The notes under the pieces were generated by a model. That model saw only the letters and a list, made by a program, of their open reading frames with translations. It ran no database searches and was not told the origin of the DNA. The position numbers were made by a program, and so were the translations under genes. Source: an uncultured Chloroflexota bacterium (GTDB lineage Bacteria > Chloroflexota > Dehalococcoidia > Lucifugimonadales > Lucifugimonadaceae). Taken from it: a stretch of 64,000 nt of DNA. The stretch spans positions 29,540-93,539 of the forward strand of contig CAJWJL010000001.1 of NCBI GenBank assembly GCA_913042135.1. The letters run 5' to 3'. Shown here piece after piece: positions 18,131-64,000 of the stretch. The stretch's first letter is position 1. Every line of letters starts with the position of its first letter.

Positions 18131-18139
18131 AGTTGAGAC

Positions 18140-18637: not shown

Positions 18638-18647
18638 GTTGGATTCC

Positions 18648-47851: not shown

Positions 47852-48730
47852 ATGAGGCTACTCATGGCTGATGAAAAGCATGAAGTTCTACTAAGGCTGA
47901 GAGCAATTGAATTGCTGGCATACTGGGAGGGACGATTGGTTACCAATCGGCTCATGTCCTGGTTTGGTATCAGCCGACAACAGGCTTCATCTGATATTAA
48001 GCGTTATATAAGTGTTCACAATCCTGGCTCCCTTTATCACGATCCGGGAGTTAAAGGGTATGTCCCACAAGGGGACTTCCAACCGGTCTTAACGAAGGGT
48101 CATATCAACGAATACCTGGATATGATTTCCGGTCTGGTCAGCGAATCTGTCGCTGTGACTCTCGAATCCGAAGATCATCTTGCTGCTGTCCAACTGCCCG
48201 ATCGCACGGTTCGGCCAGAAATAGTCCGAGAAATATTGCGAGCTTGCCGGACGCAAACCAGCGTAAAAATCCTCTACGCCTCTATGACCAACCCTGTGTG
48301 GAGTGAGCGTGTTATATCTCCGCACACACTGGTTTATACAGGGTTCCGTTGGCATGTTCGTGCGTACTGCCACAAGCGTGGTGAATTCCGTGACTTCATT
48401 CTGTCCAGGATAGACCGGACACCAAAACCTGCTACAGAGTCGTCACCCGATCCAATGCACGACTCATTGTGGAATGAGCAGATCCTGTTAACCATTGTGC
48501 CGAACCCAAAGTTGAACGATGGGCAGAAAGCTCTGGTAGAGAAGGATTTTGGTATGCCCGATGGTCGGTTACAGATTTCGGTGAGAAAAGCACTGGCACA
48601 CTATACCTTGCAGCGTTATCAGGCGGCGATAACCGTTGATGAAGCAGCCGATGAGTTTAAGTTCCCCATCATCCTACTGGATTCAGATCGAAAGAAGCTG
48701 AGTCCTTTTTTGTTTGGCTCAGAGTCTTAG
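47852..48730 (+). CDS. brxR: WYL-domain transcriptional regulator BrxR
   Basis: wHTH (IELLAYWEG...FGISRQQASSDI..Y), WYL core (Y.SM...R.ISPH.L...G.RWHVRAYC...FRDFILSRI); start could be 47864. Confidence 0.9.
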   Translation: MRLLMADEKHEVLLRLRAIELLAYWEGRLVTNRLMSWFGISRQQASSDIKRYISVHNPGSLYHDPGVKGYVPQGDFQPVLTKGHINEYLDMISGLVSESVAVTLESEDHLAAVQLPDRTVRPEIVREILRACRTQTSVKILYASMTNPVWSERVISPHTLVYTGFRWHVRAYCHKRGEFRDFILSRIDRTPKPATESSPDPMHDSLWNEQILLTIVPNPKLNDGQKALVEKDFGMPDGRLQISVRKALAHYTLQRYQAAITVDEAADEFKFPIILLDSDRKKLSPFLFGSES

Positions 48731-48736: not shown

Positions 48737-49354
48737 TTGAGTTTGATAAAGCAGTTCCATTATGACAGCGACATGGCGGGTGGCTCCCTCATGGTGAGAG
48801 AAAGCCGTATCGTTGCTGGTTTGCTAATGGACGGCGTAACACCTGAACAGTGGGATGAAGCAATTCGTGTAGAGAACGTGTTGCAAAAACGCACGCCAGC
48901 GTCAGCAAAGCGAAATGCCACGGCGATTCGCAAACGACTTGAGCGTCTGGAGCCGGAGTTCTGGCGAGCGTTGAGAGATGGTGATGACGAGCTGGCCACA
49001 CAGGTGGCCTTTTGTGGTGCGCTGGAGCGGAATCTTTTGTTGGTGGAGTTTATGGAGACGGTACTTCGTGATGCCTACATGTCGAGAGCTGAGCATCTCG
49101 ATGCGTTTGTTTGGGCGGATTTTCTCGAAGACCGGTCGCATAGAGATCCAGCTATTTGTGACTGGAAGGAATCCACGAAAAAGAAAATGGGGCAGGTGGT
49201 GTTTCGTATGCTTGCCGAGGTTGGGTACCTGAAGAGTACACGAAAGCTTGAACTACAGCATGTTGTGGTAAGGCCTGAAGTCAAAACCATGCTCGAAGAG
49301 CATTACAAACAGAGAATTAAAAAGTGCATGGAAGTGTCGGCATGGACGCGATAA
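48737..49354 (+). CDS. brxA: BREX protein BrxA (DUF1819)
   Basis: GGSLMVRESR, ENVLQKRT..SAKR, W..ST.KK......ML.EVGYL. Confidence 0.9.
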   Translation: MSLIKQFHYDSDMAGGSLMVRESRIVAGLLMDGVTPEQWDEAIRVENVLQKRTPASAKRNATAIRKRLERLEPEFWRALRDGDDELATQVAFCGALERNLLLVEFMETVLRDAYMSRAEHLDAFVWADFLEDRSHRDPAICDWKESTKKKMGQVVFRMLAEVGYLKSTRKLELQHVVVRPEVKTMLEEHYKQRIKKCMEVSAWTR

Positions 49355-49371: not shown

Positions 49372-49947
49372 ATGGATCAACGACTACATGACCGGCTGAA
49401 TCAGATACCAGACAAGATTCTGTCCCCAGAGTTTTTGAGTGGGCAGGGACTGGGAAATGAAATTGGCTTCTGGATATTTGATTACGAGCCTGAGCAAGAA
49501 CTTGGGGTTCGAGAGTATATCGAATTCCTTGAGGTTATGTTGGCCAAGAAGCACAGCCATTTGAAGGTGGTTAACATCAATCTTCTCAAGTGCCTGGTCG
49601 GTTATCTTGCCGATCGCAACTTCGTTGATAAAGCCATAGAGATGCAGAAGATCAAAGGTGATGAGGCCTTGATGAAAGCCTTGAAAGGGCCGCTGCACAT
49701 GGACAAATTCGCGCCTTACCTGACAGAAAAACATTCCGCTACCGAGCAGGACATCATCTTCATTACTGGAGTGGGTTCTGTTTGGCCGTTATTGCGAGCA
49801 CACAACCTGCTAAACAGCCTTCATTCACTGTTGGGGCATAAGCCTGTCGTCCTGTTTTATCCCGGCCAATACAACGGCCAGGCAATGAGCCTGTTCGGGA
49901 GAATACCCAGCAACAATTACTACAGAGCCTTCAGGTTGGTTCCGTAA
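49372..49947 (+). CDS. brxB: BREX protein BrxB (DUF1788)
   Basis: GLGNEIGFWIFDY.P..EL, GVGSVWPLLRAH.LLN.LH, FYPG.Y, NYYRAFRLV. Confidence 0.93.
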   Translation: MDQRLHDRLNQIPDKILSPEFLSGQGLGNEIGFWIFDYEPEQELGVREYIEFLEVMLAKKHSHLKVVNINLLKCLVGYLADRNFVDKAIEMQKIKGDEALMKALKGPLHMDKFAPYLTEKHSATEQDIIFITGVGSVWPLLRAHNLLNSLHSLLGHKPVVLFYPGQYNGQAMSLFGRIPSNNYYRAFRLVP

Positions 49948-49992: not shown

Positions 49993-52900
49993 ATGAACAT
50001 CAAAGAACTCTTTTTTAAGCCACTGGATCGCTCAATTAACGGCGTTGTTAAGGCTGACCAGGATGATGATGCCACTGTTTACCAGGAACTGGATGAATAT
50101 GTGGTGACCAATGAGCTGGAGAAGCATTTTCGGGATTTCTTTCAGTCCTACGGTACCGATCTCAATGACCCCTCCATCGCTAACCGAGTGGGGGTGTGGA
50201 TTTCTGGTTTCTTCGGCTCTGGTAAATCGCACTTCCTGAAGACCTTATCCTATATTCTGGCCAACAAGGTGGCGCGGGATTCAGAAGGTAACGAGCGCAG
50301 TGCAGTTGCGTTTTTTGATGAGCACAAGATCCGAGATGCCTTTATCCGTGCAGATATTGATAAAGCCGTAAGCGGTCATTCCGATGTCATTCTGTTCAAT
50401 ATTGACAGTAAGGCCAGCTCAAACGATGACGGCAACCCTATCCTTAATGTCTTCCTGCGAGTGTTCAATGAGCACCAGGGTTTTAGCGGCGATCACCCGC
50501 ACATCGCGCACATGGAACGCCATTTGGCCCAGAAAGGTGCCTATGAGACCTTCAAGGCTGCTTTTGAAGAATCCAGCGGTCTGTCATGGACTGAAGAACG
50601 TGACGGGTATCAGTTCTACCAGGATGACGTAGAGAAGGCCATTTCCAAGGCGTTGAACCTGTCGCCGGATGCTGCCCATAAATGGTTTGAAGAGTCCGAA
50701 GAGACGTTCAGCGTATCTGTGGAGAATTTCTGTCACTGGGTTAAAGAGTACCTGGACAGTAAAGATCCGAAACACCGGATACTGTTCCTGGTGGATGAAG
50801 TCGGTCAGTTTATTGGCAGTAATACTCGCCTGATGCTGACCTTGCAAACCATCACGGAAAACCTGGGCACCATCTGTAAGGGGCGTGCCTGGATCATAGT
50901 AACCTCTCAGGCCGATATGGACGCGGTACTGGGCGAGCTGTCATCTTCCAAGGCCAACGATTTCTCCAAGATTGCCGGTCGGTTCAAGACCCGGTTGTCG
51001 CTGTCCAGCTCGAATACCGATGAGGTTATCCAGAAGCGTTTGCTGCGCAAAACACCGGAAGCGGCGGATATGCTCAAGTCCGTGTTCGACCAGAAAGGCG
51101 ACATTCTGAAGAACCAAATTACCTTCGATCGCTCCGGGCCTACGCTCAAGAACTTTGATGGTCCAGATAGCTTCGTCAATAACTATCCTTTTGCGCCATA
51201 CCACTTCCAGTTGGTTCAGAAGGTTTTTGAGGAGATCCGTAAAGTCGGGGCCACCGGGGCGCACCTGGCTTACGGTGAGCGGTCTATGCTGGACGCCTTC
51301 CAAATGGCCGCCAGCTCCATCGCCAAGGAAGAGGTGGGAGCCCTCGTGCCTATGCACCGCTTCTATAGTGCCGTTGAGGGCTTTTTGGATACAGCCGTCA
51401 AACGCACCATCGATCAGGCCGGTGAAAATGCCACGCTGGACAGTTTCGATGTTCAGATGCTCCGCACATTGTTCATGATCCGCTATGTAGACCTGATCAA
51501 AGGAACTCTCGATAACCTGGTCACCCTGTCGATTGAGAAAATCGACGATGACAAGCTGGCGCTACGCAAACGTATCGAGGAGAGCCTTCAGCGTCTGGAG
51601 AAGGAAAGCCTGATCACTCGTAATGGTGATGAGTTCCTGTTCCTGACCAACGAAGAGCGGGACATTACTCAGAAGATTAAGGCTACTGACGTTGCCAGCT
51701 CGGAAGAAAACAAAGAACTGAGCAACCTGATTTTCAAAGACCTTCTGCGAGATACCAATAAATACCGGCATCAGCCCAACAAGATGGACTACAGCATTGG
51801 CCGGTACCTGGATGGGCATACCCTGGACGGTAAGTATGAAGCTGACCTGAAAGTGGAAGTGGTGTCACCGCTGGACACTGATTACAGCCAATACTCTGAG
51901 GCTGGCTGCATCAACAAAAGCGCAGAGGGCGAAGGTCAAATCCTTATTAAGCTGGGCGATGATAAGCAGTTCTTCAGTGAACTCCGCACCTGGCTGAAGA
52001 CCAACAAGTTTATTCGTCTGAACGACGATGGTACCCAAGCGGACATTACCCGTATCTTGGCTGATCGTGGTCGGGAGAACCAGGAGCGTAAAAAGCGCCT
52101 GCGTGCCCGGATGGAAGACATGCTGTTGAAAGCGGAGGTCTACGCTCTTGGTCAGCATCTTTCTCTATCTTCATCCAATGCACTTACCAAGCTTGATGAG
52201 GCCTGCCGCTACCTTCTGGAGAATACTTACACCAAGCTGAGCTATATCAAGGTCTACCAGCAAGACCCTTGGCGCGAGCTTAATGCCGTTCTGACCGTCG
52301 ATGATATTGGACAAATGGGCCTGTCATTGGAAGGTGAAGAGGGTAATCCAAAGGCAACCCGCGATGTTGAGCAATACATCGGGCTTAGGGCGACCGGGAC
52401 CGAGCGTATCCTGCTTTCAGACATTGTTGAGCGTTTCGCGAAGCGACCGTATGGCTGGCCAGATGCTGAGATTCTGTTGATTGTTGGCCGTTTGGCTGCG
52501 GCTGGCCGGATCTCGTTCCAGCTTGGGGGTGGAACGCTGCCTGTCAGGGAGGCGCTGGAGCCTCTCCAGAATACACGCCGTCGTCGCGAAGTCTCAATTA
52601 TCAAGAAACGCCAAACGGATGAAGCAGTGCTGAAGCAGGCGCGTAACCTGACTCAAGACCTGTTCTCTTCGATGGGACCGGCCACCGAGAAGGAGTTGTT
52701 TGAGTTTTACACCCAGCACTTCAGCAAGTGGCTGGCCAATCTCAAATCCTACAAAAGCAAAACCGATGTGGGCCGTTTTCCAGGAAAGACAGTGATTGAG
52801 CAGTCAATCCTGACTCTGGAGCGCTTGCTTAGCAACGATGATAGCTTCGATTTCTTCAAGCAGGTCGTGGATAAGAAGGATGATTACCTCGATCTGGAGG

Positions 52901-53652
52901 AGGATTACCGGGACATCCACGAATTCTTCAGTAACCAGATCCACACCTGGCAGCAGCTTCAGCAGGCACTTCGTCACTTTGATAAGAACCGTCAGGCGTT
53001 GGAGAAGGACGCGGAAGCCAGTAAGGCTTTGTCGGAACTGCAATCTATCGAATCAGCAGATGCGCCTTACGGGATGTTGCACAAGGTCGCTTCTCTGGTC
53101 AGCGCAGTAGAAACCGTCAACGAACGTCTGCTAACTGAAAAGCGAACCCATGCCATTGAGCGAGTGGACGACAAAATCAAACAGCTTGAAGGTGAGATCG
53201 CCAAGAGTGGTATTGGCTCACCTGAGCTGAGCAACCGGCTACTTCGTCCACTGCAACTGGTCAAATCAGATTTGGAAACGGAAACCAGTATTGCTGGTAT
53301 CTACATGCTGCAAACCGAAACAGCCACTGAACGCTTTGATGATGGCCTGTATGAGCTTGAGCGAGCGGTTCAGGCAGAGATTGAGCGCCGCGCCAAGGCA
53401 GAACAGGCAGCGAAAGCTCAGCAAACTAACCCAACCGGTGCAGATACGTCCACACCGGTCCCGAATACAAAGCCAGAGCCACCCGTTGCTAAGCCTAAAC
53501 CTGTTGTCGAGGTGAATGTGTCCAGCGTCTACAACAAGACCTGTGAAGGCGTGTACTTGGAAACTGAAGAATCCATCGACCAGTTTGTGGAAGCCCTCAA
53601 AGCTGAGTTGAAGAGCATTGTTCGCAATGAAAAGCGCGTGCGTATTCGCTAA
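49993..53652 (+). CDS. brxC: BREX P-loop ATPase BrxC
   Basis: R.INGVVKADQ, ELDEYVVT, WISGFFGSGKSHFLK, LVDEVGQFI, YPF.PY. Confidence 0.95.
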   Translation: MNIKELFFKPLDRSINGVVKADQDDDATVYQELDEYVVTNELEKHFRDFFQSYGTDLNDPSIANRVGVWISGFFGSGKSHFLKTLSYILANKVARDSEGNERSAVAFFDEHKIRDAFIRADIDKAVSGHSDVILFNIDSKASSNDDGNPILNVFLRVFNEHQGFSGDHPHIAHMERHLAQKGAYETFKAAFEESSGLSWTEERDGYQFYQDDVEKAISKALNLSPDAAHKWFEESEETFSVSVENFCHWVKEYLDSKDPKHRILFLVDEVGQFIGSNTRLMLTLQTITENLGTICKGRAWIIVTSQADMDAVLGELSSSKANDFSKIAGRFKTRLSLSSSNTDEVIQKRLLRKTPEAADMLKSVFDQKGDILKNQITFDRSGPTLKNFDGPDSFVNNYPFAPYHFQLVQKVFEEIRKVGATGAHLAYGERSMLDAFQMAASSIAKEEVGALVPMHRFYSAVEGFLDTAVKRTIDQAGENATLDSFDVQMLRTLFMIRYVDLIKGTLDNLVTLSIEKIDDDKLALRKRIEESLQRLEKESLITRNGDEFLFLTNEERDITQKIKATDVASSEENKELSNLIFKDLLRDTNKYRHQPNKMDYSIGRYLDGHTLDGKYEADLKVEVVSPLDTDYSQYSEAGCINKSAEGEGQILIKLGDDKQFFSELRTWLKTNKFIRLNDDGTQADITRILADRGRENQERKKRLRARMEDMLLKAEVYALGQHLSLSSSNALTKLDEACRYLLENTYTKLSYIKVYQQDPWRELNAVLTVDDIGQMGLSLEGEEGNPKATRDVEQYIGLRATGTERILLSDIVERFAKRPYGWPDAEILLIVGRLAAAGRISFQLGGGTLPVREALEPLQNTRRRREVSIIKKRQTDEAVLKQARNLTQDLFSSMGPATEKELFEFYTQHFSKWLANLKSYKSKTDVGRFPGKTVIEQSILTLERLLSNDDSFDFFKQVVDKKDDYLDLEEDYRDIHEFFSNQIHTWQQLQQALRHFDKNRQALEKDAEASKALSELQSIESADAPYGMLHKVASLVSAVETVNERLLTEKRTHAIERVDDKIKQLEGEIAKSGIGSPELSNRLLRPLQLVKSDLETETSIAGIYMLQTETATERFDDGLYELERAVQAEIERRAKAEQAAKAQQTNPTGADTSTPVPNTKPEPPVAKPKPVVEVNVSSVYNKTCEGVYLETEESIDQFVEALKAELKSIVRNEKRVRIR

Positions 53653-53664: not shown

Positions 53665-56600
53665 ATGAACACAAACAACGTAAAAAAATACGCACCTAAA
53701 GCCCGTAAAGCCTTCATTGAGGCCATGAGTAAACAGGCAGCGAAATATGGGATTACCAAAAAGAAAATCGAGCCAGCGGAGCAGAAGGGCGACCTGGTTC
53801 TGATTGGTGATAGACCGTTTCCGGCTTCGGTTATCAAACCTCGTGAACGCTTGGTAAAGCGCATTGAGCAGCAAGGCTTCGACCAGGTAATGGAGCATGT
53901 GGCCTATAGCTGGTTTAACCGTCTATGCGCAATTCGCTACATGGAACGCAAAGGGTTCCTTGACCACGGGCGTCGGGTATTGAGCGCGACTGACGGCAGT
54001 GCCGGTGTGCCCCAAATACTGGAAGAGTGTCTGGATGTCGAGTTGCCCGGCCTGGACCAGGCCAAGGTTAGAGAACTGAAGCTTGATGGCACCAAAGACG
54101 AAGAGCTTTACCGTGAGCTGTTGCTGGCCCAGTGTCATGCCTTGCACCAAGCAATGCCATTTCTGTTTGAGGCGGTAGCAGATGAATCCGAGCTGCTGTT
54201 GCCAGAGAATCTGACCAAGACCGACTCATTGATTCGTGACCTTGTTGCCAGTGTTCCTGATGAAGACTGGGAGCACATTGAGATTATTGGCTGGCTCTAC
54301 CAGTTTTATATTTCCGAGAAGAAGGATCAGGTTATGGGCAAGGTCGTGAAGAGCGAGGATATTCCAGCCGCGACACAGCTTTTCACGCCTAATTGGATTG
54401 TTCAGTACTTGGTTCAGAATTCGGTTGGTCGCCAGTGGCTTCAGACGTATCCCGATTCTCCACTCAAGGAGAAAATGCCGTACTACATCGAACCTGCTGA
54501 GCAAACGTCTGAAGTGCAGGCACAACTTTCGTCATTGATTCCAAAAGAACTCAAGCCGGAAACACTGTCCTGTATTGACCCAGCAGTCGGTAGCGGTCAT
54601 CTGCTAATCGAAGCGTACAAGGTATTCAAAGCCATCTACGAAGAAAGGGGCTATCGAACTCGCGATATTCCGCAGCTTATTCTCGAAAACAATCTTTTTG
54701 GCCTTGATATTGATGACCGTGCCGGACAATTGGCCGGGTTCGCGTTGATGATGCTGGCGAGAGAGGACGATCGACGAATCTTCAGTCGCAATATAAGACT
54801 CAATGTTTTGTCATTACAGGAAAGCTCCAATGTAAATCTGCCTTCTATATGGAGGTCATTGAACTTGACCGGAGAATGGCAGAGTGGCACATCGCAAGGA
54901 CTATTTGAAGAAGAGCAGCAGGACCTGAGTGCTTTTGCAGCAGATAACCGCTACCAGTTGCTTCAGAAAACATTAGAACGATTCAAACAGGCTAAGACCT
55001 TCGGTTCCTTAATTGATGTTCCTAATGAGGACTATCAGAGTCTGAAGAAGCTTTTCACTACCCTTTGCGAATTGGAGGGTGCGGGCGACTCAATGCAAAA
55101 GGCAGCGGCAGCACAATTGATGCCCTATGTTTATCAGGCTGTTTTGTTGGCGCAACGATATGATGCAGTTGTTGCTAATCCCCCATATATGGGGAATAGA
55201 AAAATGAATAAGTTGCTCAAAGATTTTGTGAGCAACAGTTATCCCACATCCAAGACAGATATGTTCTCTGTTTTCATGGAGCGTGCATTTGGACTGTTAA
55301 AAGATAATGGTTATAACTCACAAATTAATATGCAGTCATGGATGTTTCTTTCTAGTTATTCTGGGTTGCGTGACCATCTTATTAATTTACATACAATAGA
55401 AACGATGGCGCATTTTGGCCCTAGAGCTTTCTCTCAAATTTCCGGTGAGGTTGTCCAAACAACAGCGTGGACAATAAGGAAACATCATATAGAGAGTTAT
55501 AAGGCCAAGTACTACCGCCTATTGGAAGGAGGAGAACAGCAGAAGGCCAAAGATTTACTGAGTAGGAAAAATGAATATGTTGTGTCATCCGAGGTATATA
55601 AAAGTATACCTGGAAGCCCGCTCGCTTACTGGGTATCTGATACTGTAAGACGAGCGTTTGATTTATACCCTGCTTTATCAACATTTGCAAAACCAAGGCA
55701 AGGACTAGCTACTTCGGATAATGATAGATTTTTACGTTTATGGCATGAGGTTTCTTTAGGAAACGCATGTCTTGATGCGAAAAGCAGAGACGAAGCAAAA
55801 CTATCTGAAAAAAAATGGTTCCCATGTCAAAAAGGAGGGGGATACAGGCGGTGGTATGGAAATCATGAGTATTTTGTGAATTGGGGTGATGATGGAAGAG
55901 AACTTCTTGATTATGCAGCTAAATTGTATGGCTCTCCAACACGAACAATAAAGAACATTCAGTTCTATTTTCGTGATGGATTAACATGGTCCACACTATC
56001 TTCGGCGGGAATGACAATGAGATATTCGCCGAGCGGATTTATTTCAGAAACAAAAGGAGCTGTTTGTTTCTTTGATAGTGAAAATGAAAAACTAAAGACA
56101 CTGGCCGTTCTTAACTCCAATATCGTAGATCCTCTGATATTAACGATGAGTCCAACATTGGACTTCCATGAGGGGCCTGTTGGTCTAATTCCTATAAACA
56201 GGAATATCGACGAATCTGTGATTTCGTTGTCTGAAGAGTGCGTGGCTATTGCCAAGGATGATTGGGATTCAAAAGAAACATCTTGGGATTTCAAAAGGCA
56301 TCAACTGTCTTCGTATCAGGGGGCGGTCGAGGTTGCAATCAAAGACATTTTGGATCGAGCAAGAGATAAAACAGGTAGAGTAAAAGAGTGTGAGGAAAGG
56401 ATTAATGAGATCGTTATAAATTCATACGGTCTTAATAAAGAAATAAGTCCTTATGTCTCAGCTTCGGCTATTACCTTGGATAATAATATTCACTTTGCCT
56501 ACTCTAGTATTTTAGAGGAAACAGATAAGGTTAAGGCTTACATAAGCGATTTGTTTGCAGAGTTCATTTCCTATTCGATTGGAGTTATGTTTGGACGATA

Positions 56601-57330
56601 TTCTCTGGATGTGAACGGACTTGTTTATGCACACTCCGGAAATGTGGGTTTTTCTGATTTGGTAAAAGAAGGGAAATATGAGACTTTTCCCGTAGACGAT
56701 GACGGCATTATTCCGTTAACTGATCAAGAATGGTTCCCTGATGATGCAACCAATCGATTCCGTGATTTTGTCAATGTCGTTTGGGGAGAATACCACCTTC
56801 AAGAAAACCTCGACTTCGTAGCCGATTCTCTCTGCCTGCACGCTATCAAACCGAAGAAATCCGAATCGTCGATAGATACGATTCGTCGGTACCTGTCTAC
56901 CCAGTTCTATAAAGACCACCTAAAGACCTACAAAAAACGACCAATTTACTGGCTGTTCAGCTCTGGCAAGCAAAAGGCTTTCGAGTGCCTGGTTTATCTG
57001 CACCGGTATAACGAAGGTACGCTGGCGCGTATGCGTACTGAGTACGTCATTCCCCTGACAGCGAAGATGGCGGCTTATGCTCAAAAGCTGGAGAACGACA
57101 AAGAAGCCAGTGGATCGGCAGCGGAGGTGAAGCGGCTTGAAAAAGAAATTGCCCAACTGCACAAGCAGCAGGCTGAGCTGAGTGAGTTCGATGAGAAGTT
57201 GCGCCATTATGCTGACCAGAGAATAAGCCTGGATCTGGATGATGGCGTAAAGGCCAACTACGGCAAATTTGGTGATTTGCTGGCAGAAGTGAAAGCCATT
57301 ACCGGCGAGGCTCCGGAGGCTCTGTCATGA
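53665..57330 (+). CDS. pglX: BREX adenine methyltransferase PglX (BrxX)
   Basis: AY.WFNRLCAIRYME, PAATQLFTPNWIV, DPAVGSGH, VVANPPY, KKRPIYW, DLDDGVKANYGKF. Confidence 0.95.
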   Translation: MNTNNVKKYAPKARKAFIEAMSKQAAKYGITKKKIEPAEQKGDLVLIGDRPFPASVIKPRERLVKRIEQQGFDQVMEHVAYSWFNRLCAIRYMERKGFLDHGRRVLSATDGSAGVPQILEECLDVELPGLDQAKVRELKLDGTKDEELYRELLLAQCHALHQAMPFLFEAVADESELLLPENLTKTDSLIRDLVASVPDEDWEHIEIIGWLYQFYISEKKDQVMGKVVKSEDIPAATQLFTPNWIVQYLVQNSVGRQWLQTYPDSPLKEKMPYYIEPAEQTSEVQAQLSSLIPKELKPETLSCIDPAVGSGHLLIEAYKVFKAIYEERGYRTRDIPQLILENNLFGLDIDDRAGQLAGFALMMLAREDDRRIFSRNIRLNVLSLQESSNVNLPSIWRSLNLTGEWQSGTSQGLFEEEQQDLSAFAADNRYQLLQKTLERFKQAKTFGSLIDVPNEDYQSLKKLFTTLCELEGAGDSMQKAAAAQLMPYVYQAVLLAQRYDAVVANPPYMGNRKMNKLLKDFVSNSYPTSKTDMFSVFMERAFGLLKDNGYNSQINMQSWMFLSSYSGLRDHLINLHTIETMAHFGPRAFSQISGEVVQTTAWTIRKHHIESYKAKYYRLLEGGEQQKAKDLLSRKNEYVVSSEVYKSIPGSPLAYWVSDTVRRAFDLYPALSTFAKPRQGLATSDNDRFLRLWHEVSLGNACLDAKSRDEAKLSEKKWFPCQKGGGYRRWYGNHEYFVNWGDDGRELLDYAAKLYGSPTRTIKNIQFYFRDGLTWSTLSSAGMTMRYSPSGFISETKGAVCFFDSENEKLKTLAVLNSNIVDPLILTMSPTLDFHEGPVGLIPINRNIDESVISLSEECVAIAKDDWDSKETSWDFKRHQLSSYQGAVEVAIKDILDRARDKTGRVKECEERINEIVINSYGLNKEISPYVSASAITLDNNIHFAYSSILEETDKVKAYISDLFAEFISYSIGVMFGRYSLDVNGLVYAHSGNVGFSDLVKEGKYETFPVDDDGIIPLTDQEWFPDDATNRFRDFVNVVWGEYHLQENLDFVADSLCLHAIKPKKSESSIDTIRRYLSTQFYKDHLKTYKKRPIYWLFSSGKQKAFECLVYLHRYNEGTLARMRTEYVIPLTAKMAAYAQKLENDKEASGSAAEVKRLEKEIAQLHKQQAELSEFDEKLRHYADQRISLDLDDGVKANYGKFGDLLAEVKAITGEAPEALS

Positions 57331-59951
57331 ATCTGAACCAGCTTCGAGAGGGCCTTGAGCAGGCCTTCTACAAAGAGAACCATCGCCTGGTGTTCTGGTA
57401 TGACCCGGAGCAGTCATTTGTGGATGAGCTACCGTCCCTGTCTCTCGTGGACGTGCAGATCCTCAACATGGCCAATGAATCAGCATTGGGTACCAAGCTC
57501 AAATTGGAGTTGGAAGATAAGGCCGGTAAGTATCTCCTGTACTTCCCATTTGCCGAGCCAGATGTAGAAAGAGACTGGTTGCTCGACATCAAGTTGTACT
57601 CCAGATGCTTCTACGCCGATCGCTTCTCAATCATCTTCAATGAGCTTGGACTGCACCAGCAAAGCTTGAGAGAGCACCTCGCCAAGCGAGACAAATTCCT
57701 TGCCAGTAAAGCAAGGCTGACGGCTCTACAACGCTATGTTCAACCTGACTTTGATGAGTCTGATCTGGACATGGCCATGATCGCTTCTGTGGTGAAGGCG
57801 GAAAGCTGTGATCTCCCGCATGTGATCCTGGCGCTTGCTGAAGAAACAGTTGCGGATGACCTTGGACTGGAGGCCAATCCAGCTTCTCTCAACGAACTTG
57901 AAAAATACGACTTAATCCCGGCATTGGTAGCTGCGCTTCAGTCCGAAATTGGTTACCCGGCTACGGTAGAGGAGTTGAAGGGTGAAGCCCAATTCAAGCT
58001 GGGACATTTCTTTATCCGGTTGCTGGTAACCGGCTTCTGCGAGAGCGTCGGTGATGTACCTGGCTGGGCTCAAGAATTGGTAATGTCTTCGGCCAGCTCC
58101 CGTGCAACTGCCAGAGCATTACTTTCACGTTGGCGAGACAGTTCACGCTATTACAAAGCGTTCGATGCCGTGTCCGGGTGGGTGGCGATCGCGCTGCGCA
58201 TCAAAGACAAGATGGGTATATTCGATACTGACCAACTCAGCGATGTTGTCACCTTTGAGGCCGTGGAGCAGAAGATTATTGTCGATCTGGCCGTGGCCAT
58301 TCCTCATGCTCCCAAGGGGGAGTTGGAACGTTTCCGTGCAATGATAGCTTCTCGCCTGGACGGTTACTGGGCTTCCAAGCATAAAGACGACACGACGCGC
58401 CGGAAGTACCGCACCGTTTATACCGCATTGCAGGCTGCTATCGACCTCTTCAGCTTGCGTATTCAGCATGATAGCGGATTCCACTTTGAGTCGAGTGAAG
58501 CGCTATACAAGGCTTACGAGCGAGACCTATACCGCTTCGATATGGCCTACCGTCATTACTGTGAAGCGTCCCAGCGTGCTCATGTAGAGATCCTGAAGAA
58601 GCTCGATGACGAAGTGGAGAATTGTTACGCCTACTGGTACATCGACAACTTGGCGAAGAACTGGGGTGACCGCGTTGAGGCTGAGCAACGTCTCTCTCAG
58701 TGGCGCTTTCCTGGAATACCTAATCAGCAGGACTTCTTTCAGGGACTGGTGAAACCGTTGTTTTCCAAGGCTACCAAGCGCCGGGTTGTGGTCATCATCA
58801 GTGATGCCTTTCGCTATGAGGCAGCAGTGGAGCTTCGCGATCGAATCAACGACAAGCGTTACTCTGAAGCTACTCTGTCTTCCCAGCTTGGCGTTGTCCC
58901 AAGTTATACGACATTGGGGATGGCGTCCCTCTTGCCTCATAAAACGCTGGAGTATCGCGAATCAGCTTCAGATGACGTGTTTGTGGATGGCCAATCCAGT
59001 AAGGGCACAGCGGCAAGAACCAAGATCCTTGCAGCGCATGGCGGTCTGGCCGTGACAGCAGAAACCGTTAAAGCCTGGTCAAGGGATGAAGGCCGGGAAG
59101 CCCTCAAAGATCAGGAGCTGGTCTATGTCTACCACAATGTAGTGGATGCCCGAGGCGATAGCTCATCGACGGAATCAGAAACTTTCATGGCCGTTGAACA
59201 CGCTATCGAGGAGTTGACTGAGTTGAGCCGCAAGATCCTGATGCACTTCAACACATCGACGGTGCTCATCACGGCAGATCACGGTTTCTTATTCCAGCAA
59301 AGTAAGCTGGAGGCAGCCGATCGCTCGTCTCTGGCTGAAAAACCAACCAATGCCCTGAAGAACAAAAAGCGCTATGTGGTGGGCTTTGGTCTGCCAGATA
59401 CCAAAGAAGCGTGGAAGGGCTCAACCAAGGCAACAGCCGGAACAGCTTCAGATACTGATTTCTGGGTGCCGAAGGGTGCCAACCGATTCCATTTCGTGGG
59501 CGGTTCACGTTTTGTCCACGGTGGGGTTATGCCGCAAGAGATTGTCGTGCCGGTATTGACCGTCAAACAGCTTCGTGGCGAAAAAGCCGAGAAGCGTACC
59601 AAGCGAAAAGTAGGGGTCATTTCCACCAAGTCCACCCTGAAAATGGTGAACAACATCCAGAAGTTCGACCTGATGCAGACCGAAGTGGTCAGTGATTTGA
59701 TTACACCGGTCACGGTGTCAGTGGCCATCTACGACGGTGATAGCAAGATCTCCAGCGAAGAGACGGTGACCTTTGACTGTGCAACCGATTCGGTCGCGGA
59801 GCGGGTCAAGCAAGTACGACTCTCACTGTCTGGGACGGACTTCGATCGGAAGAAGGATTACTTCCTGGTGCTCAAGGACAAGGACCTGAATACCGAGATG
59901 GAGCGCTATAAGGTCACCATCGACTTGGCGTTTACCGATGACTTCTTTTAA
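57327..59951 (+). CDS. pglZ: BREX alkaline-phosphatase-fold protein PglZ (BrxZ)
   Basis: VFWYDP, WLLDI.LYS..F.AD, VIISDAFRYE, PSYT.LGMASLLPH, ITADHGF, FVHGG..PQE. Confidence 0.95.
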   Translation: MNLNQLREGLEQAFYKENHRLVFWYDPEQSFVDELPSLSLVDVQILNMANESALGTKLKLELEDKAGKYLLYFPFAEPDVERDWLLDIKLYSRCFYADRFSIIFNELGLHQQSLREHLAKRDKFLASKARLTALQRYVQPDFDESDLDMAMIASVVKAESCDLPHVILALAEETVADDLGLEANPASLNELEKYDLIPALVAALQSEIGYPATVEELKGEAQFKLGHFFIRLLVTGFCESVGDVPGWAQELVMSSASSRATARALLSRWRDSSRYYKAFDAVSGWVAIALRIKDKMGIFDTDQLSDVVTFEAVEQKIIVDLAVAIPHAPKGELERFRAMIASRLDGYWASKHKDDTTRRKYRTVYTALQAAIDLFSLRIQHDSGFHFESSEALYKAYERDLYRFDMAYRHYCEASQRAHVEILKKLDDEVENCYAYWYIDNLAKNWGDRVEAEQRLSQWRFPGIPNQQDFFQGLVKPLFSKATKRRVVVIISDAFRYEAAVELRDRINDKRYSEATLSSQLGVVPSYTTLGMASLLPHKTLEYRESASDDVFVDGQSSKGTAARTKILAAHGGLAVTAETVKAWSRDEGREALKDQELVYVYHNVVDARGDSSSTESETFMAVEHAIEELTELSRKILMHFNTSTVLITADHGFLFQQSKLEAADRSSLAEKPTNALKNKKRYVVGFGLPDTKEAWKGSTKATAGTASDTDFWVPKGANRFHFVGGSRFVHGGVMPQEIVVPVLTVKQLRGEKAEKRTKRKVGVISTKSTLKMVNNIQKFDLMQTEVVSDLITPVTVSVAIYDGDSKISSEETVTFDCATDSVAERVKQVRLSLSGTDFDRKKDYFLVLKDKDLNTEMERYKVTIDLAFTDDFF

Positions 59952-59980: not shown

Positions 59981-62020
59981 ATGGAATCCGCTAACGATAA
60001 AGAATTAGATCAACTGCTGAATGAGCACTTTGCGGGTCGTGTGGTTCGCAAGGATCTCACCAAGCTCATTAAAGAAGGGGCGAATGTCCCTGTCTATGTG
60101 CTCGAATACCTGCTTGGCATGTACTGCGCGTCTGATGATCCAGACATCATTGAGCAAGGGCTGAACAACGTCAAAACCGTGTTGGCAGAGAATTACGTGC
60201 GCCCGGATGAGGCTGAAAAGGTTAAGTCCCTGGTGAAGGAGCGCGGAACCTATAAGGTCATCGACCGGGTTACCGTGAAGCTGAATGAACGCAAGGATAA
60301 ATATGAGGCCTCTTTCAGCAATCTGGGTATCAAGGACGCTGAAATTTCCTCTGGTATCGTCAAAGAGTACGAGAAGCTGCTGGTGGGTGGTATCTGGGTC
60401 ATTGCCACTTTGAGTTATTACCACGAGGAAGGGCAGACCGGTTCGCCTTTCGGAGTAACGCTGCTCAAGCCAATCCAGATGCCGAACATGAATATGGACG
60501 AGCTCTTCCAGGGGAGAGCTGCTTTGACAACGGACCAGTGGCGTGAGTGTTTGATACGGTCAGTTGGTATGGAGCCAGCGGCGTTAGGTGTCGATGTGCA
60601 ATGGCACATTCTGGCCCGGATGATTCCATTCGTTGAGAACAACTATAACGTCTGTGAGTTGGGTCCACGCGGGACAGGTAAAAGCCATATTTACAAGGAA
60701 TGCTCCCCCAACAGCATTTTGGTGTCTGGCGGCCAAACGACCGTGGCCAACCTGTTTTACAACATGAGTTCACGCCGAATTGGTCTGGTCGGGCTTTGGG
60801 ACTTGGTTGCCTTCGATGAGGTGGCCGGGATCTCCTTCAAGGACAAAGATGGTGTCCAGATCATGAAGGACTATATGGCTTCTGGTTCCTTTGCCCGTGG
60901 CCGTGAACAGATGGAAGCTTCCGCCTCTATGGTGTTTGTAGGCAACATCAACCAGAGCGTTGAGTCCTTAGTGAAAACAAGTCATCTGCTGGCACCATTC
61001 CCGGATGCCATGATCGACTCCGCTTTCTTTGACCGTTTCCATGCCTACATCCCAGGCTGGGAAATCCCCAAGATGCGCCCAGAGTTTTTCACCAACCGTT
61101 ACGGCTTGATTGTTGACTACCTGGCAGAGTTTTATCGGGAGATGCGCAAGCGCAGCTTCGCAGATGCTATCGAGAAATACTTTAAGCTGGGGAACAACCT
61201 GAACCAGCGTGATGTGATCGCGGTACGCAAGACAGTTTCTGGCCTACTGAAACTACTATTCCCGCATGGACAGTTCGATAAAGAGGATGTGCGCCAGTGC
61301 CTGGAGTATGCCCTTCAGGTTCGACGCCGGGTGAAGGAACAACTCAAAAAGATTGGTGGCATGGAGTTCTACGATGTCCACTTCAGTTACATCGACAATG
61401 ATTCGCTGGAAGAGCATTTCGTATCAGTCAAAGAGCAGGGTGGCGGTGGCCTGATCCCAGAAGGCCCTGGTAAGCCCGGATTCCTTCACACCATTGGTCT
61501 CAGCAACAAAGGGATGCCTGGCTTATACCGGCTGGAACTTCAGGTTACCAAGGGCTCCGGCAAGTTGGCCACATCAGGGCTATGGAACTCCAGTGCAGCT
61601 AAAGAGCAGGTGAAGATTGCCTTTGATTACTTCAAGGCTAACGCATCCAGGATCAGCGGTGGGAGTAAAGTGGGAGAACATGACTTCCATTTGCACGCAG
61701 TTGAGCTTCAGAACACCGGGCCATTCAGTCATCTGGCGCTCTCCAGTCTTGTTGCCTTTGCGTCAGGCCTCCTTGGTAAGCCTCTTCAGAACCAGATGGT
61801 GGTGCTGGGGGATATGAGTCTGGGCGGTTCCGTTACGCCGGTAGAAAGCCTTGCTGAGTGCCTCCAGGTCGCTTTTGATGCAGGGGCCAAGAAAGTGGCC
61901 TTGCCGATGAGCAGTGCAGCAGACATACCAACGATTCCGGCTGAACTGTTTACCAAGTTCCAGACAAGTTTTTACGCCGATCCGGTTGATGCGGTGTTTA
62001 AGGCTCTTGGGGTGGATTAA
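59981..62020 (+). CDS. brxL: BREX Lon-like protein BrxL
   Basis: GRVVRKDLT..IKEGANVPVYVLEYLLG, ELGPRGTGKSH, AFDEVAG, C-terminal Lon-like domain. Confidence 0.95.
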   Translation: MESANDKELDQLLNEHFAGRVVRKDLTKLIKEGANVPVYVLEYLLGMYCASDDPDIIEQGLNNVKTVLAENYVRPDEAEKVKSLVKERGTYKVIDRVTVKLNERKDKYEASFSNLGIKDAEISSGIVKEYEKLLVGGIWVIATLSYYHEEGQTGSPFGVTLLKPIQMPNMNMDELFQGRAALTTDQWRECLIRSVGMEPAALGVDVQWHILARMIPFVENNYNVCELGPRGTGKSHIYKECSPNSILVSGGQTTVANLFYNMSSRRIGLVGLWDLVAFDEVAGISFKDKDGVQIMKDYMASGSFARGREQMEASASMVFVGNINQSVESLVKTSHLLAPFPDAMIDSAFFDRFHAYIPGWEIPKMRPEFFTNRYGLIVDYLAEFYREMRKRSFADAIEKYFKLGNNLNQRDVIAVRKTVSGLLKLLFPHGQFDKEDVRQCLEYALQVRRRVKEQLKKIGGMEFYDVHFSYIDNDSLEEHFVSVKEQGGGGLIPEGPGKPGFLHTIGLSNKGMPGLYRLELQVTKGSGKLATSGLWNSSAAKEQVKIAFDYFKANASRISGGSKVGEHDFHLHAVELQNTGPFSHLALSSLVAFASGLLGKPLQNQMVVLGDMSLGGSVTPVESLAECLQVAFDAGAKKVALPMSSAADIPTIPAELFTKFQTSFYADPVDAVFKALGVD

Positions 62021-62060
62021 TGAAAGGCAACGAAATGAAATCAGGGTTAGAAGGACGTTC

Positions 62061-63482
62061 ATGAAACAGGTCGAAATCGAAAATCAGTTACGAGAAGTTG
62101 TCAGCAGGCTGATAACTGAGATTGATCTGGCAACGAAGCAGGGAAGGCTTGATGTTAACCTGATTTCTGAAGATGCCTGGATACCTATCCTGAAGGAGGT
62201 TTACCAGTGCCCGAATCTTGTAAATCTGAATAGAAAACACAAGAACTTCCCTGGCATTGATTTAGGAGATGAGCAGGACCGGGTTGCCTTCCAAGTAACC
62301 TCGTCCACAGACCTTGAGAAGGTCAAATCGACCTTGGAGCAGTTTAAGAAACGCAATTACAAGAATGCCTTTGACGAGCTCTATATATTCACGCTGCGTT
62401 CTAAGCAGAAAAGCTACTCTCAGGATGCGATTGATAACGTCATTGGTGATGAAATACGCTTTGATGCAAAGGAGCACATCATTGATCCTGGCGATATTTT
62501 GGCTCAGATAACCGGGTTACGGTTGCCAGCACAAGAGAGAATGTTGCAGGAGTTTCGCGCGATACTAGGAGATGTAGAAGCATCGGTCGAAGAGTTAAAC
62601 GCGCCCGAGAATGCTCCGTATATCTTAGTTTCAAATCTCATTGAGGTTACACCTCCAAAGGAATTGTATGTAGCCGAATTGTGCATCGACGAAGAAAGCA
62701 CAATTGCAGCGGCCAAGCGCGATTTGAACTACAACGGGAGACGCCCTAACAAGCATCTATTGGTGAGACTAGCTTTACAGCTCGCTGGGTTAGATTGTCA
62801 TGGCTGGGCGATATTTGAGAATCGCATTTTCACGTTCTATGACATGGAGCGTGAGTCGGCTTTCAGATCCATAGTAGACGTTGGAAGTATCGAAGAGCTC
62901 ACGACGGAAGATATTTCACAACATGAACTCGTTGAATATCAGAATCTTTTCAAGTATCTGATGAAGGATACACTCCGGGATCAGCTTCATGCGTTCAATG
63001 TAAATTGGAGTAAGCAACAAAATCAATTTTACTTTTTGCCTGATGAAAAAGACTCTGAGCAGAGAAGGGAAGAATGGGTTGGTAAAAAGCTCTCACGAAG
63101 AAGAGTTTTTGAAAAGAAGTACCAGACGAAAGACCCAACAAAAGTAGCCTTCTTCAAGCACTTGGCATTTGACATCTCATTCATTGATGTTGACTCACAG
63201 TGGTATGCCACTGTTACCCCTAGCTGGTACTACACATGGAATCTGTATAAGCGCAATCGATTCCATGATGATCTTCTCTCAAAGCAGAAGCGTCTTGAGC
63301 ATAACAATTCCGTTAGAGATCAAGTTAGATTCATCGGGTATTTCCTTGCTAATAGCCGTAATGATAACGATTTGATCTCATTTGGCGAATTGGTCGAATT
63401 CCAATGTTTGTCCAACATATCACTCGAAGAAAACGACGAGCTGGAAGAAGTGTTGGAAGAGGAGGATGCCAGTGCAAATTAA
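62061..63482 (+). CDS. SMEK-domain/APAZ fusion (putative short-pAgo effector subunit)
   Basis: Start at ATG 62061 (RBS aagga). N-terminus D.N..SE..W..IL..VY...L.NLN....NFPGIDLGD....AFQVTS...K+..TL..F (SMEK-like). C-terminus LVSNLIEV..P..LY, H.AF...F......WY..VTP.WY.T, K+LEHN..V (APAZ-like). Confidence 0.75.
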   Translation: MKQVEIENQLREVVSRLITEIDLATKQGRLDVNLISEDAWIPILKEVYQCPNLVNLNRKHKNFPGIDLGDEQDRVAFQVTSSTDLEKVKSTLEQFKKRNYKNAFDELYIFTLRSKQKSYSQDAIDNVIGDEIRFDAKEHIIDPGDILAQITGLRLPAQERMLQEFRAILGDVEASVEELNAPENAPYILVSNLIEVTPPKELYVAELCIDEESTIAAAKRDLNYNGRRPNKHLLVRLALQLAGLDCHGWAIFENRIFTFYDMERESAFRSIVDVGSIEELTTEDISQHELVEYQNLFKYLMKDTLRDQLHAFNVNWSKQQNQFYFLPDEKDSEQRREEWVGKKLSRRRVFEKKYQTKDPTKVAFFKHLAFDISFIDVDSQWYATVTPSWYYTWNLYKRNRFHDDLLSKQKRLEHNNSVRDQVRFIGYFLANSRNDNDLISFGELVEFQCLSNISLEENDELEEVLEEEDASAN

Positions 63483-64000
63483 GATTCTTGAGGAGCCGAA
63501 GCTGGAGTTTGCCAATGGAACACACATCTGTCCAAAAGCAGGCATTGAAACCCTTGGCGTATATGACAAAAACGATGAATTCCGGCAAAGCGAGTTGAGA
63601 CTGGGAATCGTTGGGCGCGGGGAAGGTGTAGATCTGTTAGATCTCTGGATAGCAAAATGCCAAGAAGGAATAGAGGCGAAGGAGTCAAAATATTCCAATC
63701 TGTTCAGAGGGTTTGGGGGATTCACACAGCATCACGGTTTCTATGCAAAATTCCTGTATGGACCGACTCTAACCAGAACAATCCAGAAATCAGAGCTAAA
63801 CAAAACGCTGAAAATTCAATCCAGGGAAGAGCGAGTCAAGGTATGTGTTGACCTTTACTTCGATCAAATCCGGTTTCTTGCCGAGCATCGGCCTGTGGAT
63901 GTCATTATTTGCGTTATCCCAAATGATATGTTCGATGCGCTGACCAAGGAGAAGGGAAAGGATGAAGATCCAGAAAACTATGATGGCGACTCGAACGATG
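63472..64000 (+). CDS. Short prokaryotic Argonaute (MID-PIWI type), 3'-truncated by the window end; not in the ORF track
   Basis: GTG 63472 after GGAGG (in-frame ATG at 63466); MQIKILEEPKLEFANGTHICPKAGIETLGVYD...LRLGIVG...NLFRGFGGF...VDVIICVIP; open to base 64000. Confidence 0.8.
   Translation, partial: MQIKILEEPKLEFANGTHICPKAGIETLGVYDKNDEFRQSELRLGIVGRGEGVDLLDLWIAKCQEGIEAKESKYSNLFRGFGGFTQHHGFYAKFLYGPTLTRTIQKSELNKTLKIQSREERVKVCVDLYFDQIRFLAEHRPVDVIICVIPNDMFDALTKEKGKDEDPENYDGDSND

What the first reader, a model, noticed from the sequence alone, without database searches (positions are those of the whole stretch)
62061..64000. SMEK-APAZ + short Argonaute pair appended to a BrxR-controlled BREX operon
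Seen: 40 bp after brxL, a 473-aa gene overlaps by 11 bp an ORF the track missed because it runs off the end. That ORF begins EEPKLEF..G.H.CP..G+..LG.YD, followed by +G+VG, F.GF.GF and DV++CVIP, the N-terminal pattern I recognise in short pAgos. The upstream protein has an APAZ-like C-terminus and a SMEK-like N-terminus whose GIDL.D...FQVTS resembles a PD-(D/E)xK-type nuclease core. Known: short pAgos heterodimerise with effector-APAZ partners (TIR in SPARTA, SIR2 in SPARSA, DUF4365/DREN nuclease in SPARDA), and SMEK occurs as an effector domain in other defence systems. Inference: a guide-activated abortive or DNA-degrading system with a SMEK effector, which I do not know to be characterised, co-transcribed with BREX as a second defence layer.
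Basis: partly seen in the sequence, partly recalled or inferred. Interest (0 to 1): 0.9.

Follow-up and report, generated by a model that had tools for sequence, protein, structure and literature searches.

The report
Known Argonaute defence pair behind BREX
This is an intact two-gene bacterial defence module of an already named and catalogued type (an inactive short Argonaute plus a partner carrying a predicted DNA-cutting domain); on this widespread plasmid-like element it sits at the end of a BREX operon and is likely switched on with it, but the two systems travel independently, so the find is mostly ordinary.

Summary
Window 62061-63482 encodes a 473-aa SMEK(Mrr-like nuclease)-APAZ protein; a complete 480-aa short Argonaute runs from 63472 to 64914. 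It has the RK guide pocket and lacks the PIWI tetrad. The novelty claim fails: this is the SPARMA type, tested in vitro in Kordia jejudonensis (Kim 2020, seen only as cited), whose Mrr domain is the only PDB match to this domain's profile. A 99.8-100% identical pair from Vibrio tubiashii p123 was catalogued in 2018, and the scan found this type before on other DNA. Likely mechanism: RNA-guided sensing of single-stranded invader DNA, oligomerisation, collateral DNA cleavage, abortive infection. Shared transcription with BREX is plausible (gaps of 45 bp or less, a conserved BrxR box, RNA-library contigs across the junction) but not shown. The link is not conserved: brxL lies directly upstream in 5 of 14 close and 0 of 60 distant loci, and at least 245 of 327 BrxL plasmids lack the pair. 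Close relatives occur as cassette-like units with attC-like ends. SPARMA's in vivo role remains untested.

The parts
47791..47815 (+). Predicted BrxR operator: 10-bp half-sites with a 5-bp spacer
   Evidence: Aligns with the 25-bp pseudo-palindrome bound by Acinetobacter NEB394 BrxR at the same distance from the start codon; binding not tested here
47864..48730 (+). brxR, WYL-domain repressor
   Evidence: Pfam WYL E 1.1e-15; 69% identical to NEB394 BrxR; start taken from the RefSeq annotation of the p123 copy
48743..49354 (+). brxA
   Evidence: Pfam BrxA E 3.4e-49
49372..49947 (+). brxB
   Evidence: Pfam BrxB E 4.7e-40
49993..53652 (+). brxC ATPase
   Evidence: NCBIfam NF033441 over cut-off
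53665..57330 (+). pglX (brxX) methyltransferase, BREX-1
   Evidence: NCBIfam NF033452 over cut-off
57327..59951 (+). pglZ (brxZ)
   Evidence: TIGR02687 over cut-off
59981..62020 (+). brxL
   Evidence: TIGR02653 over cut-off; 94% identical to NEB394 BrxL
62021..62060 (+). 40-bp spacer between brxL and the SMEK-APAZ gene, without a terminator-like or sigma-70 promoter-like match
   Evidence: bridged by RNA-library contigs
62061..63482 (+). SMEK(Mrr-like nuclease)-APAZ effector, 473 aa
   Evidence: PADLOC Aga_REase-PNTD1-PNTD2 over residues 1-469, E 2.6e-187
62061..62570 (+). SMEK/Mrr nuclease domain (about residues 1-170); putative catalytic E37, D67, Q78, K87, with T80 where PD-(D/E)xK enzymes have Lys
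   Evidence: Profile matches PDB 26BH (Kordia Mrr domain) at E 7e-42, the only PDB hit up to E 10; E37, D67, Q78, K87 invariant in 54 of 54 homologues; best fold match LlaBIII nuclease domain, Z 8.3, rmsd 3.4 over 130 residues
62616..63410 (+). APAZ domain (about residues 186-450)
   Evidence: Sequence match to DREN-APAZ chains over residues 242-439; Foldseek E 2.4e-20 to SPARDA 9VX6
63411..63479 (+). Acidic, low-confidence C-terminal tail, predicted to plug the nucleic-acid groove
   Evidence: Net acidic charge of 4 or more in the last 25 residues in 82 of 82 homologues, 10 here; pLDDT under 50; role inferred from SPARDA
63472..64000 (+). Short pAgo (MID-PIWI, 480 aa from GTG 63472), 5' part; the gene runs on 914 bp past the window end and stops at the equivalent of 64914 (L001:3472-4914)
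   Evidence: PADLOC pAgo_I E 1.9e-187; SPARDA Agos E 7.8e-85; RK pocket present and tetrad absent

Best explanation
The two genes encode a SPARMA-type module, an inactive short Argonaute and a SMEK(Mrr-like)-APAZ partner, that likely forms a heterodimer, is predicted to load 5'-phosphorylated RNA guides (probably starting AU), to recognise complementary single-stranded invader DNA, and then to oligomerise and switch on the Mrr-like nuclease for non-specific DNA cleavage that would kill or arrest the infected cell. Shown here: domain content, intact frames, RK pocket, missing PIWI tetrad, conserved nuclease residues and acidic tail. Inferred from SPARDA, SPARHA and the Kordia system: heterodimer, guide type, release of the acidic tail, filament or oligomer formation, collateral cleavage, abortive outcome. 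The pair is a self-contained mobile module that was stacked behind brxL in a plasmid defence island (BrxR, BREX-1, SPARMA, PDC-S11, a TM0106 nuclease-helicase, a TrlF ATPase). It likely rides on the BrxR-repressed transcript, but it does not need BREX and BREX does not need it.
For: Domains. MID pocket R190, K194, Q205, K238 (numbering of the 482-aa ORF; subtract 2 for the GTG start) invariant in 72 of 72 homologues, matching NbaAgo R183/K187/K240 (alignment; passages). N188, Q222, N230 match the XauAgo residues N179, Q222, N230 that read a 5'-AU guide. Tetrad aspartate positions hold G262, S337 and R459 when aligned with six long pAgos that keep the aspartates. Pairing is conserved: 79 of 83 full-length SMEK-APAZ loci have the pAgo next door; 3 of the 4 others end within 240 bp. 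Independence from BREX. Shared transcript: gaps of 45 bp or less from brxR to trlF, BrxR box, RNA-library contigs bridging brxL and the SMEK gene in three runs of one study (X2, X3, X4). Precedent: KjAgo with SMEK-APAZ forms a heterodimer with weak collateral nuclease activity (PMC12205087, passage).
Against: No activity was measured here. The nuclease core reads Q-x-T instead of (D/E/Q)-x-K, and the role of K87 as a relocated lysine is inferred from conservation only. The Kordia data are described once as RNA-guided target cleavage of unknown function (PMC10810196) and once as weak collateral activity, so the abortive step is borrowed from SPARDA. One locus (L089) has 1.1 kb downstream and no pAgo match. 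RNA-library contigs cannot show strand or a single transcript, and two of the four runs covered the whole stretch, as DNA would. An anti-plasmid suicide system carried by a conjugative element raises a self-targeting problem that is not explained.
Confidence: 0.78

Rival explanations
1. BREX and the Argonaute pair form one functionally coupled system, for example BREX-stalled phage DNA or BREX nuclease products supply the single-stranded target, or the pair is a fail-safe tripped when phage inhibitors block BREX.
For: Same strand, 40-bp gap, no terminator-like match. The brxL-SMEK junction is kept in Marinobacter (L007) at 87% protein identity. Back-up effectors beside BREX are common (PMC12839542, passages).
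Against: brxL lies directly upstream in 5 of 14 loci at 80% identity or more and 0 of 60 more distant loci with at least 600 bp upstream. In L014 a type I restriction system and an OLD nuclease replace BREX, leaving only the last 61 codons of brxL, while the pair is kept. At least 245 of 327 BrxL plasmid records belong to genera absent from the 23 records that match the effector. NEB394 BREX, with 94% identical BrxL, is followed by transposases and restricts phage on its own.
Confidence: 0.12
2. The SMEK domain acts as a tethered on-target cutter: it replaces the dead PIWI site and cleaves only the guide-matched DNA, clearing the invader without killing the cell.
For: The Kordia system was reported to mediate RNA-guided target DNA cleavage (as cited in PMC10810196). 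The nearest folds include LlaBIII and FokI nuclease domains, which are tethered to recognition modules (their tethering is recalled).
Against: The sister S2B systems SPARDA and SPARHA cut bystander nucleic acids and form filaments; AlphaFold models in one study suggested filament interfaces for most systems tested, a set that included Kordia; another paper cites weak collateral activity for KjAgo.
Confidence: 0.12
3. The SMEK domain is a weak or dead nuclease and the pair works by binding DNA or by recruiting a neighbouring nuclease such as PDC-S11.
For: Threonine at the canonical lysine position in 53 of 54 homologues; activity of the Kordia complex described as weak; PDC-S11 follows the pAgo in 5 of the 6 brxL-adjacent loci (L002, L013, L014, L015, L019; not L007).
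Against: E37, D67, Q78 and K87 are invariant across homologues down to 37% identity and are kept in the Kordia domain. No PDC-S11 match lies near any other pair locus.
Confidence: 0.06
4. The pair is transcribed from its own or an internal promoter and is not under BrxR control.
For: BrxR loci can have internal promoters and second operators (PMC9122601, passages); in V. cholerae mitomycin C induced only downstream BREX genes (PMC13622015 section 6). The pair lies 14 kb from the BrxR box.
Against: No sigma-70-like match lies within 500 bp upstream of the SMEK gene (a simple scan). NEB394 BREX is one long transcript from a start just before brxR (PMC9122589, passage).
Confidence: 0.3

Closest known systems
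SPARMA: KjAgo + Mrr(SMEK)-APAZ of Kordia jejudonensis (Kim, Jung and Lim 2020, not held, seen only as cited; name from bioRxiv 10.1101/2025.04.08.647717; PDB 26BH)
   Same: Same two-gene layout and domain order; SMEK domain homologous over its whole length (E 7e-42, about 37% identity by my count) with E37, D67, Q78, T80, K87 equivalents; RK-type short pAgo of similar size (480 vs 485 aa).
   Different: A distinct subfamily whose named members are mainly Proteobacteria; plasmid-borne and placed behind BREX; no tree with the Kordia proteins was built here.
Vibrio tubiashii p123 pair WP_004748890.1 / WP_004748891.1, listed in Ryazansky et al. 2018 (PMC6299218 supplements)
   Same: 99.8% and 100% identical by tblastn, same neighbours from brxR to trlF; listed as short, RK-putative, no tetrad, with the partner as an APAZ protein of orthogroup 3.
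   Different: PglX is only 63% identical, so the BREX methylation site probably differs; never tested experimentally as far as my searches show.
SPARDA (DREN/DUF4365-APAZ + short pAgo: Nba, Xau, Eae, Tmu) and SPARHA (HNH-APAZ)
   Same: Closest solved Argonautes and APAZ domains; same MID residues, 5'-AU-reading residues and acidic tail.
   Different: Effector is SMEK/Mrr-like with a different topology from DREN (bioRxiv 10.1101/2023.06.08.544223 section 5); DREN-APAZ sequence matches begin only at residue 242.
BrxR-regulated type 1 BREX of Acinetobacter NEB394 and BrxR defence islands (PMC9122589, PMC9122601)
   Same: Seven genes in the same order, 52-94% identical, equivalent operator.
   Different: Here five further defence-type genes follow brxL on the same strand; NEB394 has insertion sequences there.

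Membership tests
SPARMA (short pAgo + Mrr/SMEK-APAZ) | Effector-APAZ gene directly followed by a short pAgo gene | tested here: met
   11-bp overlap; conserved in 79 of 83 full-length loci
SPARMA (short pAgo + Mrr/SMEK-APAZ) | pAgo with MID and PIWI only | tested here: met
   480 aa, full-length match to PADLOC pAgo_I and to SPARDA/SPARHA Agos
SPARMA (short pAgo + Mrr/SMEK-APAZ) | PIWI lacks the DEDX tetrad | tested here: met
   G262, S337, R459 at the three aspartate positions against six long pAgos; the glutamate finger was not mapped
SPARMA (short pAgo + Mrr/SMEK-APAZ) | RK-type 5'-phosphate pocket in MID | tested here: met
   R190, K194, Q205, K238 in 72 of 72
SPARMA (short pAgo + Mrr/SMEK-APAZ) | N-terminal SMEK/Mrr nuclease domain homologous to the Kordia domain | tested here: met
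   PF21941 E 3.6e-45; PDB 26BH E 7e-42; PD-(D/E)xK folds lead the VIA-align list
SPARMA (short pAgo + Mrr/SMEK-APAZ) | C-terminal APAZ domain | tested here: met
SPARMA (short pAgo + Mrr/SMEK-APAZ) | Placement in clade S2B on the same branch as KjAgo | tested here: inconclusive
   Nearest solved relatives are S2B systems (E 5e-71 to 8e-85) ahead of S2A SPARTA (3e-32); the KjAgo sequence was not in hand, so no tree
SPARMA (short pAgo + Mrr/SMEK-APAZ) | Stable heterodimer | not tested
SPARMA (short pAgo + Mrr/SMEK-APAZ) | Guide- and target-dependent nuclease activity | not testable with these tools
   Needs purified proteins
SPARDA in the strict sense (DREN/DUF4365 effector) | N-terminal DUF4365/DREN domain | tested here: not met
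   N-terminus is SMEK; no DUF4365 hit at E 0.1; DREN-APAZ matches cover only the APAZ part. PMC12205087 uses SPARDA in a broad sense that includes SMEK
SPARTA / SPARSA | TIR or SIR2 NADase fused to APAZ | tested here: not met
   No TIR or SIR2 Pfam hit; PADLOC SIR2-APAZ models match only residues 240-436
Type 1 BREX with BrxR | brxA, brxB, brxC, pglX, pglZ, brxL in order, WYL gene and inverted-repeat operator upstream | tested here: met
   (operator by sequence only)
   5 of 74 loci adjacent, all at 87% identity or more; 1 further locus has a divergent BREX
   Layout and bridging RNA-library contigs fit; contigs cannot show a transcript

The most novel reading that the evidence does not exclude
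On this widespread marine plasmid-like element the single-stranded-DNA-sensing repressor BrxR places a guide-programmed suicide nuclease (SPARMA, with an unusual D-Q-T core and relocated lysine) under the same switch as BREX: the Argonaute system is kept low so that it does not attack its own carrier, is induced after a restricted infection, and acts as the fail-safe against phages that block BREX. The same pair also spreads on its own as an attC-flanked cassette. This would be a case of phage-induced transcriptional control of a prokaryotic Argonaute system that my searches did not find in print.
Probability: 0.25. Interest if true: 0.55.

Novelty: already known. Interest (0 to 1): 0.24.

Why it matters
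SPARMA is the least studied of the nuclease-type short Argonaute systems: one in vitro report and one domain structure, and no in vivo defence test that my searches found. This copy is intact, has near-identical relatives in marine Proteobacteria and their plasmids, is on record letter for letter on 334 contigs and appears in RNA libraries, so it is a convenient test case, and the alignments name the residues to mutate. If BrxR does control it, it would show how a self-destructive Argonaute system can be carried safely on a conjugative element. As a discovery of a new system, it does not qualify.

Tried and rejected
Foldseek of the SMEK domain alone: no match at E 0.001 or below; the best rows were restriction endonucleases (EcoT38I E 0.024) and 26BH was not among them; VIA-align best Z 8.3 is only just above the level the tool calls common. 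Search of 401 genomes of the host's class with the effector profile: only the window and one APAZ-only match, too few to study context. RNA libraries: in X2 and X3 no contig covered 45335-47335, upstream of brxR, and listed contigs began at 47923-47925 inside brxR, which would fit a transcript starting there, but both runs are from one study, a gap in contigs proves nothing, X1 and X5 covered the whole stretch, and downstream of trlF all bins were covered in X2-X4, so no silent control stretch was found there. Promoter and terminator scan: counts at or below the shuffle expectation (6 vs 15.6; 11 vs 10.5), uninformative beyond the junction. Host lineage: the genome's RecA had no named cluster member and the atlas search was uninformative; host not established. 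Fused SMEK-APAZ-pAgo forms: none among 10 longer hits, weak evidence. Kim et al. 2020 is not held. Supplements of PMC12738770 and PMC9097488 held no mention of the V. tubiashii accessions or SMEK; those of the BREX survey PMC12839542 could not be read and bioRxiv supplements are closed, so a listing of this BREX-Argonaute locus there cannot be excluded. Rejected readings: a new Argonaute subtype; a broken or truncated pAgo; a conserved composite with BREX or with PDC-S11.
Full report
1. Observation. brxL ends at 62020, a 473-aa gene runs 62061-63482, and a second gene starts at GTG 63472 with an 11-bp overlap, 6 nt after AGGAGG. The window is G000:C1:29540-93539; reading on in the contig, the second gene ends at the equivalent of 64914 and is intact. 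I numbered its residues on the 482-aa ORF from the in-frame ATG 63466; the 480-aa GTG product is the one on record (348 contigs). Upstream lie brxR, brxA, brxB, brxC, pglX, pglZ and brxL; the four large genes pass their NCBIfam cut-offs and the other three their Pfam cut-offs. Downstream lie PDC-S11, a TM0106 nuclease-helicase and a TrlF ATPase. No gap between brxR and trlF exceeds 45 bp.

2. The effector. Residues 10-150 match Pfam SMEK_N (E 3.6e-45); PADLOC has a full-length model, Aga_REase-PNTD1-PNTD2 (E 2.6e-187). A profile of 54 SMEK domains finds one PDB sequence up to E 10: 26BH, 'the Mrr domain from Kordia jejudonensis Mrr-APAZ pAgo' (E 7e-42). The domain model (pLDDT 91.5) aligns best with the LlaBIII nuclease domain (Z 8.3, rmsd 3.4, 130 residues), then AF1548, FokI, NucC, Avs4, MspJI and AspBHI among others (Z 6.5-7.3); these scores are middling but consistently PD-(D/E)xK folds. 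E37, D67, Q78 and K87 are invariant in 54 of 54, and position 80 is Thr in 53 of 54. I infer an E...PD-Q core whose lysine has moved to the next helix; this is not shown. Residues 242-439 match DREN-APAZ chains by sequence (E 1.3e-25), and the full-length model (pLDDT 84.3) retrieves SPARDA, SPARTA and SPARHA APAZ chains (best E 2.4e-20). The last 25 residues are net acidic in 82 of 82 homologues, like the tail that blocks the groove of inactive XauSPARDA (passage).

3. The Argonaute. It matches PADLOC pAgo_I over its length (E 1.9e-187) and solved S2B Argonautes at E 8e-85 to 5e-71, ahead of SPARTA Argonautes at 3e-32; the Pfam Piwi model misses it. R190, K194, Q205 and K238 are invariant in 72 of 72 homologues and R190, K194, K238 align with NbaAgo R183, K187, K240, whose mutation blocks SPARDA. 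N188, Q222 and N230 align with XauAgo N179, Q222, N230, which read a 5'-AU guide. Aligned with six long pAgos that keep their catalytic aspartates (picked from the 11 matches), the three aspartate positions hold G262, S337 and R459. The pairing is conserved: of 89 loci (one search kept the best 80 of 224), 83 hold a full-length effector and 79 of these have the pAgo next to it; three of the other four end within 240 bp, one has 1.1 kb without a match.

4. What is known. Prostova et al. [quoted passage not shown] Lu et al. (PMC10810196, passages) and the NbaSPARDA structure paper (PMC12205087, passages) cite a SMEK-APAZ heterodimer with RNA-guided DNA targeting; the latter names Kordia and weak collateral activity. 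Jurgelaitis et al. (10.1101/2025.04.08.647717; passages and section 17) call the Kordia system SPARMA and model possible filament interfaces. Kim et al. 2020 itself is not held. V. tubiashii p123 carries a 99.8% identical effector and an identical pAgo in the same gene order, and both accessions are in the supplements of Ryazansky et al. 2018 (PMC6299218; passages and supplement search, two picture files unreadable) as a short, RK-type pAgo without tetrad and an APAZ partner. Earlier notes of this scan reached the same call in seven of the eight findings listed; I had reached it before that look-up (note). So the type and in effect this member are catalogued. What I did not find in print is an in vivo test of SPARMA or a report of BREX-linked short pAgos (searches; the five papers were seen as listings only; the main texts of PMC12839542 and PMC9122601 never mention Argonaute; the former's supplement was unreadable).

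5. The BREX link. For shared control: BrxR is 69% identical to the characterised NEB394 repressor, and a 25-bp pseudo-palindrome at 47791-47815 aligns with its bound site at the same distance from the start codon (PMC9122589 passages); NEB394 BREX is one transcript. The 40-bp spacer has no terminator-like or promoter-like match. Contigs from three RNA-library runs of one study bridge brxL and the SMEK gene, and one bridges SMEK, pAgo, PDC-S11 and the start of TM0106; contigs cannot show a transcript, and DNA in the libraries is not excluded. [quoted passage not shown] Against a coupled system: among 74 loci with at least 600 bp upstream, brxL is adjacent in 5 of 14 at 80% identity or more and 0 of 60 more distant ones, one of which has a divergent BREX (L013, with 460 bp upstream, also shows the brxL end; the test used this window's BREX proteins and could miss distant BREX types). 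In L014 BREX was replaced and the pair kept. Of 327 plasmid records with BrxL, at least 245 are from five genera absent from the 23 records matching the effector; NEB394 has transposases after brxL. On a tree of 20 close copies the BREX-adjacent label needs at least two changes, and an AU test rejects the eight BREX-adjacent copies as one clade (p 4.9e-5, L010 left out): either two captures behind brxL or repeated escapes. Two copies within the window's own strongly supported group, L003 and L004, are BREX-free and end in attC-like hairpins. Stacking of diverse systems behind BrxR is itself a described pattern (PMC9122601).

6. Mechanism. Shown: intact genes, domains, guide pocket, dead PIWI, conserved nuclease residues. 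Inferred from SPARDA, SPARHA and Kordia: the heterodimer loads short 5'-phosphorylated RNAs, probably 5'-AU, pairs them with single-stranded invader DNA, displaces the acidic tail, oligomerises, and brings Mrr-like domains together to cut DNA without regard to sequence, arresting or killing the cell (about 0.78 for the reading as an independent SPARMA module; rivals: on-target cutter 0.12, BREX-coupled 0.12, weak nuclease 0.06). Shared BrxR control is a separate question, about 0.65-0.7.

7. Verdict. Remaining interest lies in SPARMA's untested in vivo role, its unusual active site, possible BrxR control and cassette-like mobility. Novelty: already known. Interest 0.24.

Noticed in passing
L001:4924-12046 (past the window end, equivalent to 64924-72046): Three more same-strand genes follow the pAgo with gaps of 9 bp or less: a PADLOC PDC-S11 NucS-like nuclease (350 aa), a TM0106-family nuclease-helicase (1144 aa) and a TrlF-family PHP-ATPase (878 aa). 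The genes after PDC-S11 vary among close relatives.
   Followed up: partly
L003:9904-9969 and 12876-12923; L004:12876-12923; L005:12876-12923; L021:12874-12921; L094:20874-20921: Close relatives without BREX carry a 48-nt attC-like hairpin with a bulged base just after the pAgo stop; in Gilvimarinus (L003) the pair is flanked on both sides. The scan gave 6 hits in 16 loci, 5 of them flanking the pair, none in L001, L002 or L007, and 1 in 427,810 shuffled bases (the L005 site was folded but missed by the scan). The site is shorter than classical attC sites (recalled lower bound about 57 nt) and no integron integrase was found among 37 neighbours scanned, so 'integron cassette' is a lead.
   Followed up: partly
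window 1-44000 and contig G000:C1: The window is the backbone of a conjugative element (TraC, TraU, TraG, SSB, RecT, YqaJ, KfrA). About 33 of the 41 kb fetched from V. tubiashii p123 (MOBH, MPF_F) align to it at 97-99%. The effector's exact sequence is on 334 contigs, the host genome's RecA on 20, and the contig's tetranucleotide profile is at the far edge of the bin, so its assignment to this genome may be a binning artefact.
   Followed up: partly
L014:531-9957: A type I restriction system, RmuC and an OLD-family nuclease stand where BREX is in the window; only the last 61 codons of brxL remain before the SMEK-APAZ gene.
   Followed up: yes
window 53665-57330: PglX is only 63-71% identical to its full-length counterparts in elements whose other BREX genes are 92-100% identical, and has lower G+C (0.45), as expected for swapping of the specificity gene.
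   Followed up: no
L007:1408-5265 and 13004-18868: In Marinobacter zhejiangensis a GmrSD-like gene and an ATPase pair sit inside BREX, and an MksE-containing SMC-like cluster follows the pAgo.
   Followed up: no
   Followed up: no
L060:6-8127: A distant SMEK-APAZ/pAgo pair (46%) has a divergently oriented BrxR-BREX cluster about 1.9 kb upstream, separated by ROS/MUCR and Abi_C genes: an independent co-location.
   Followed up: partly
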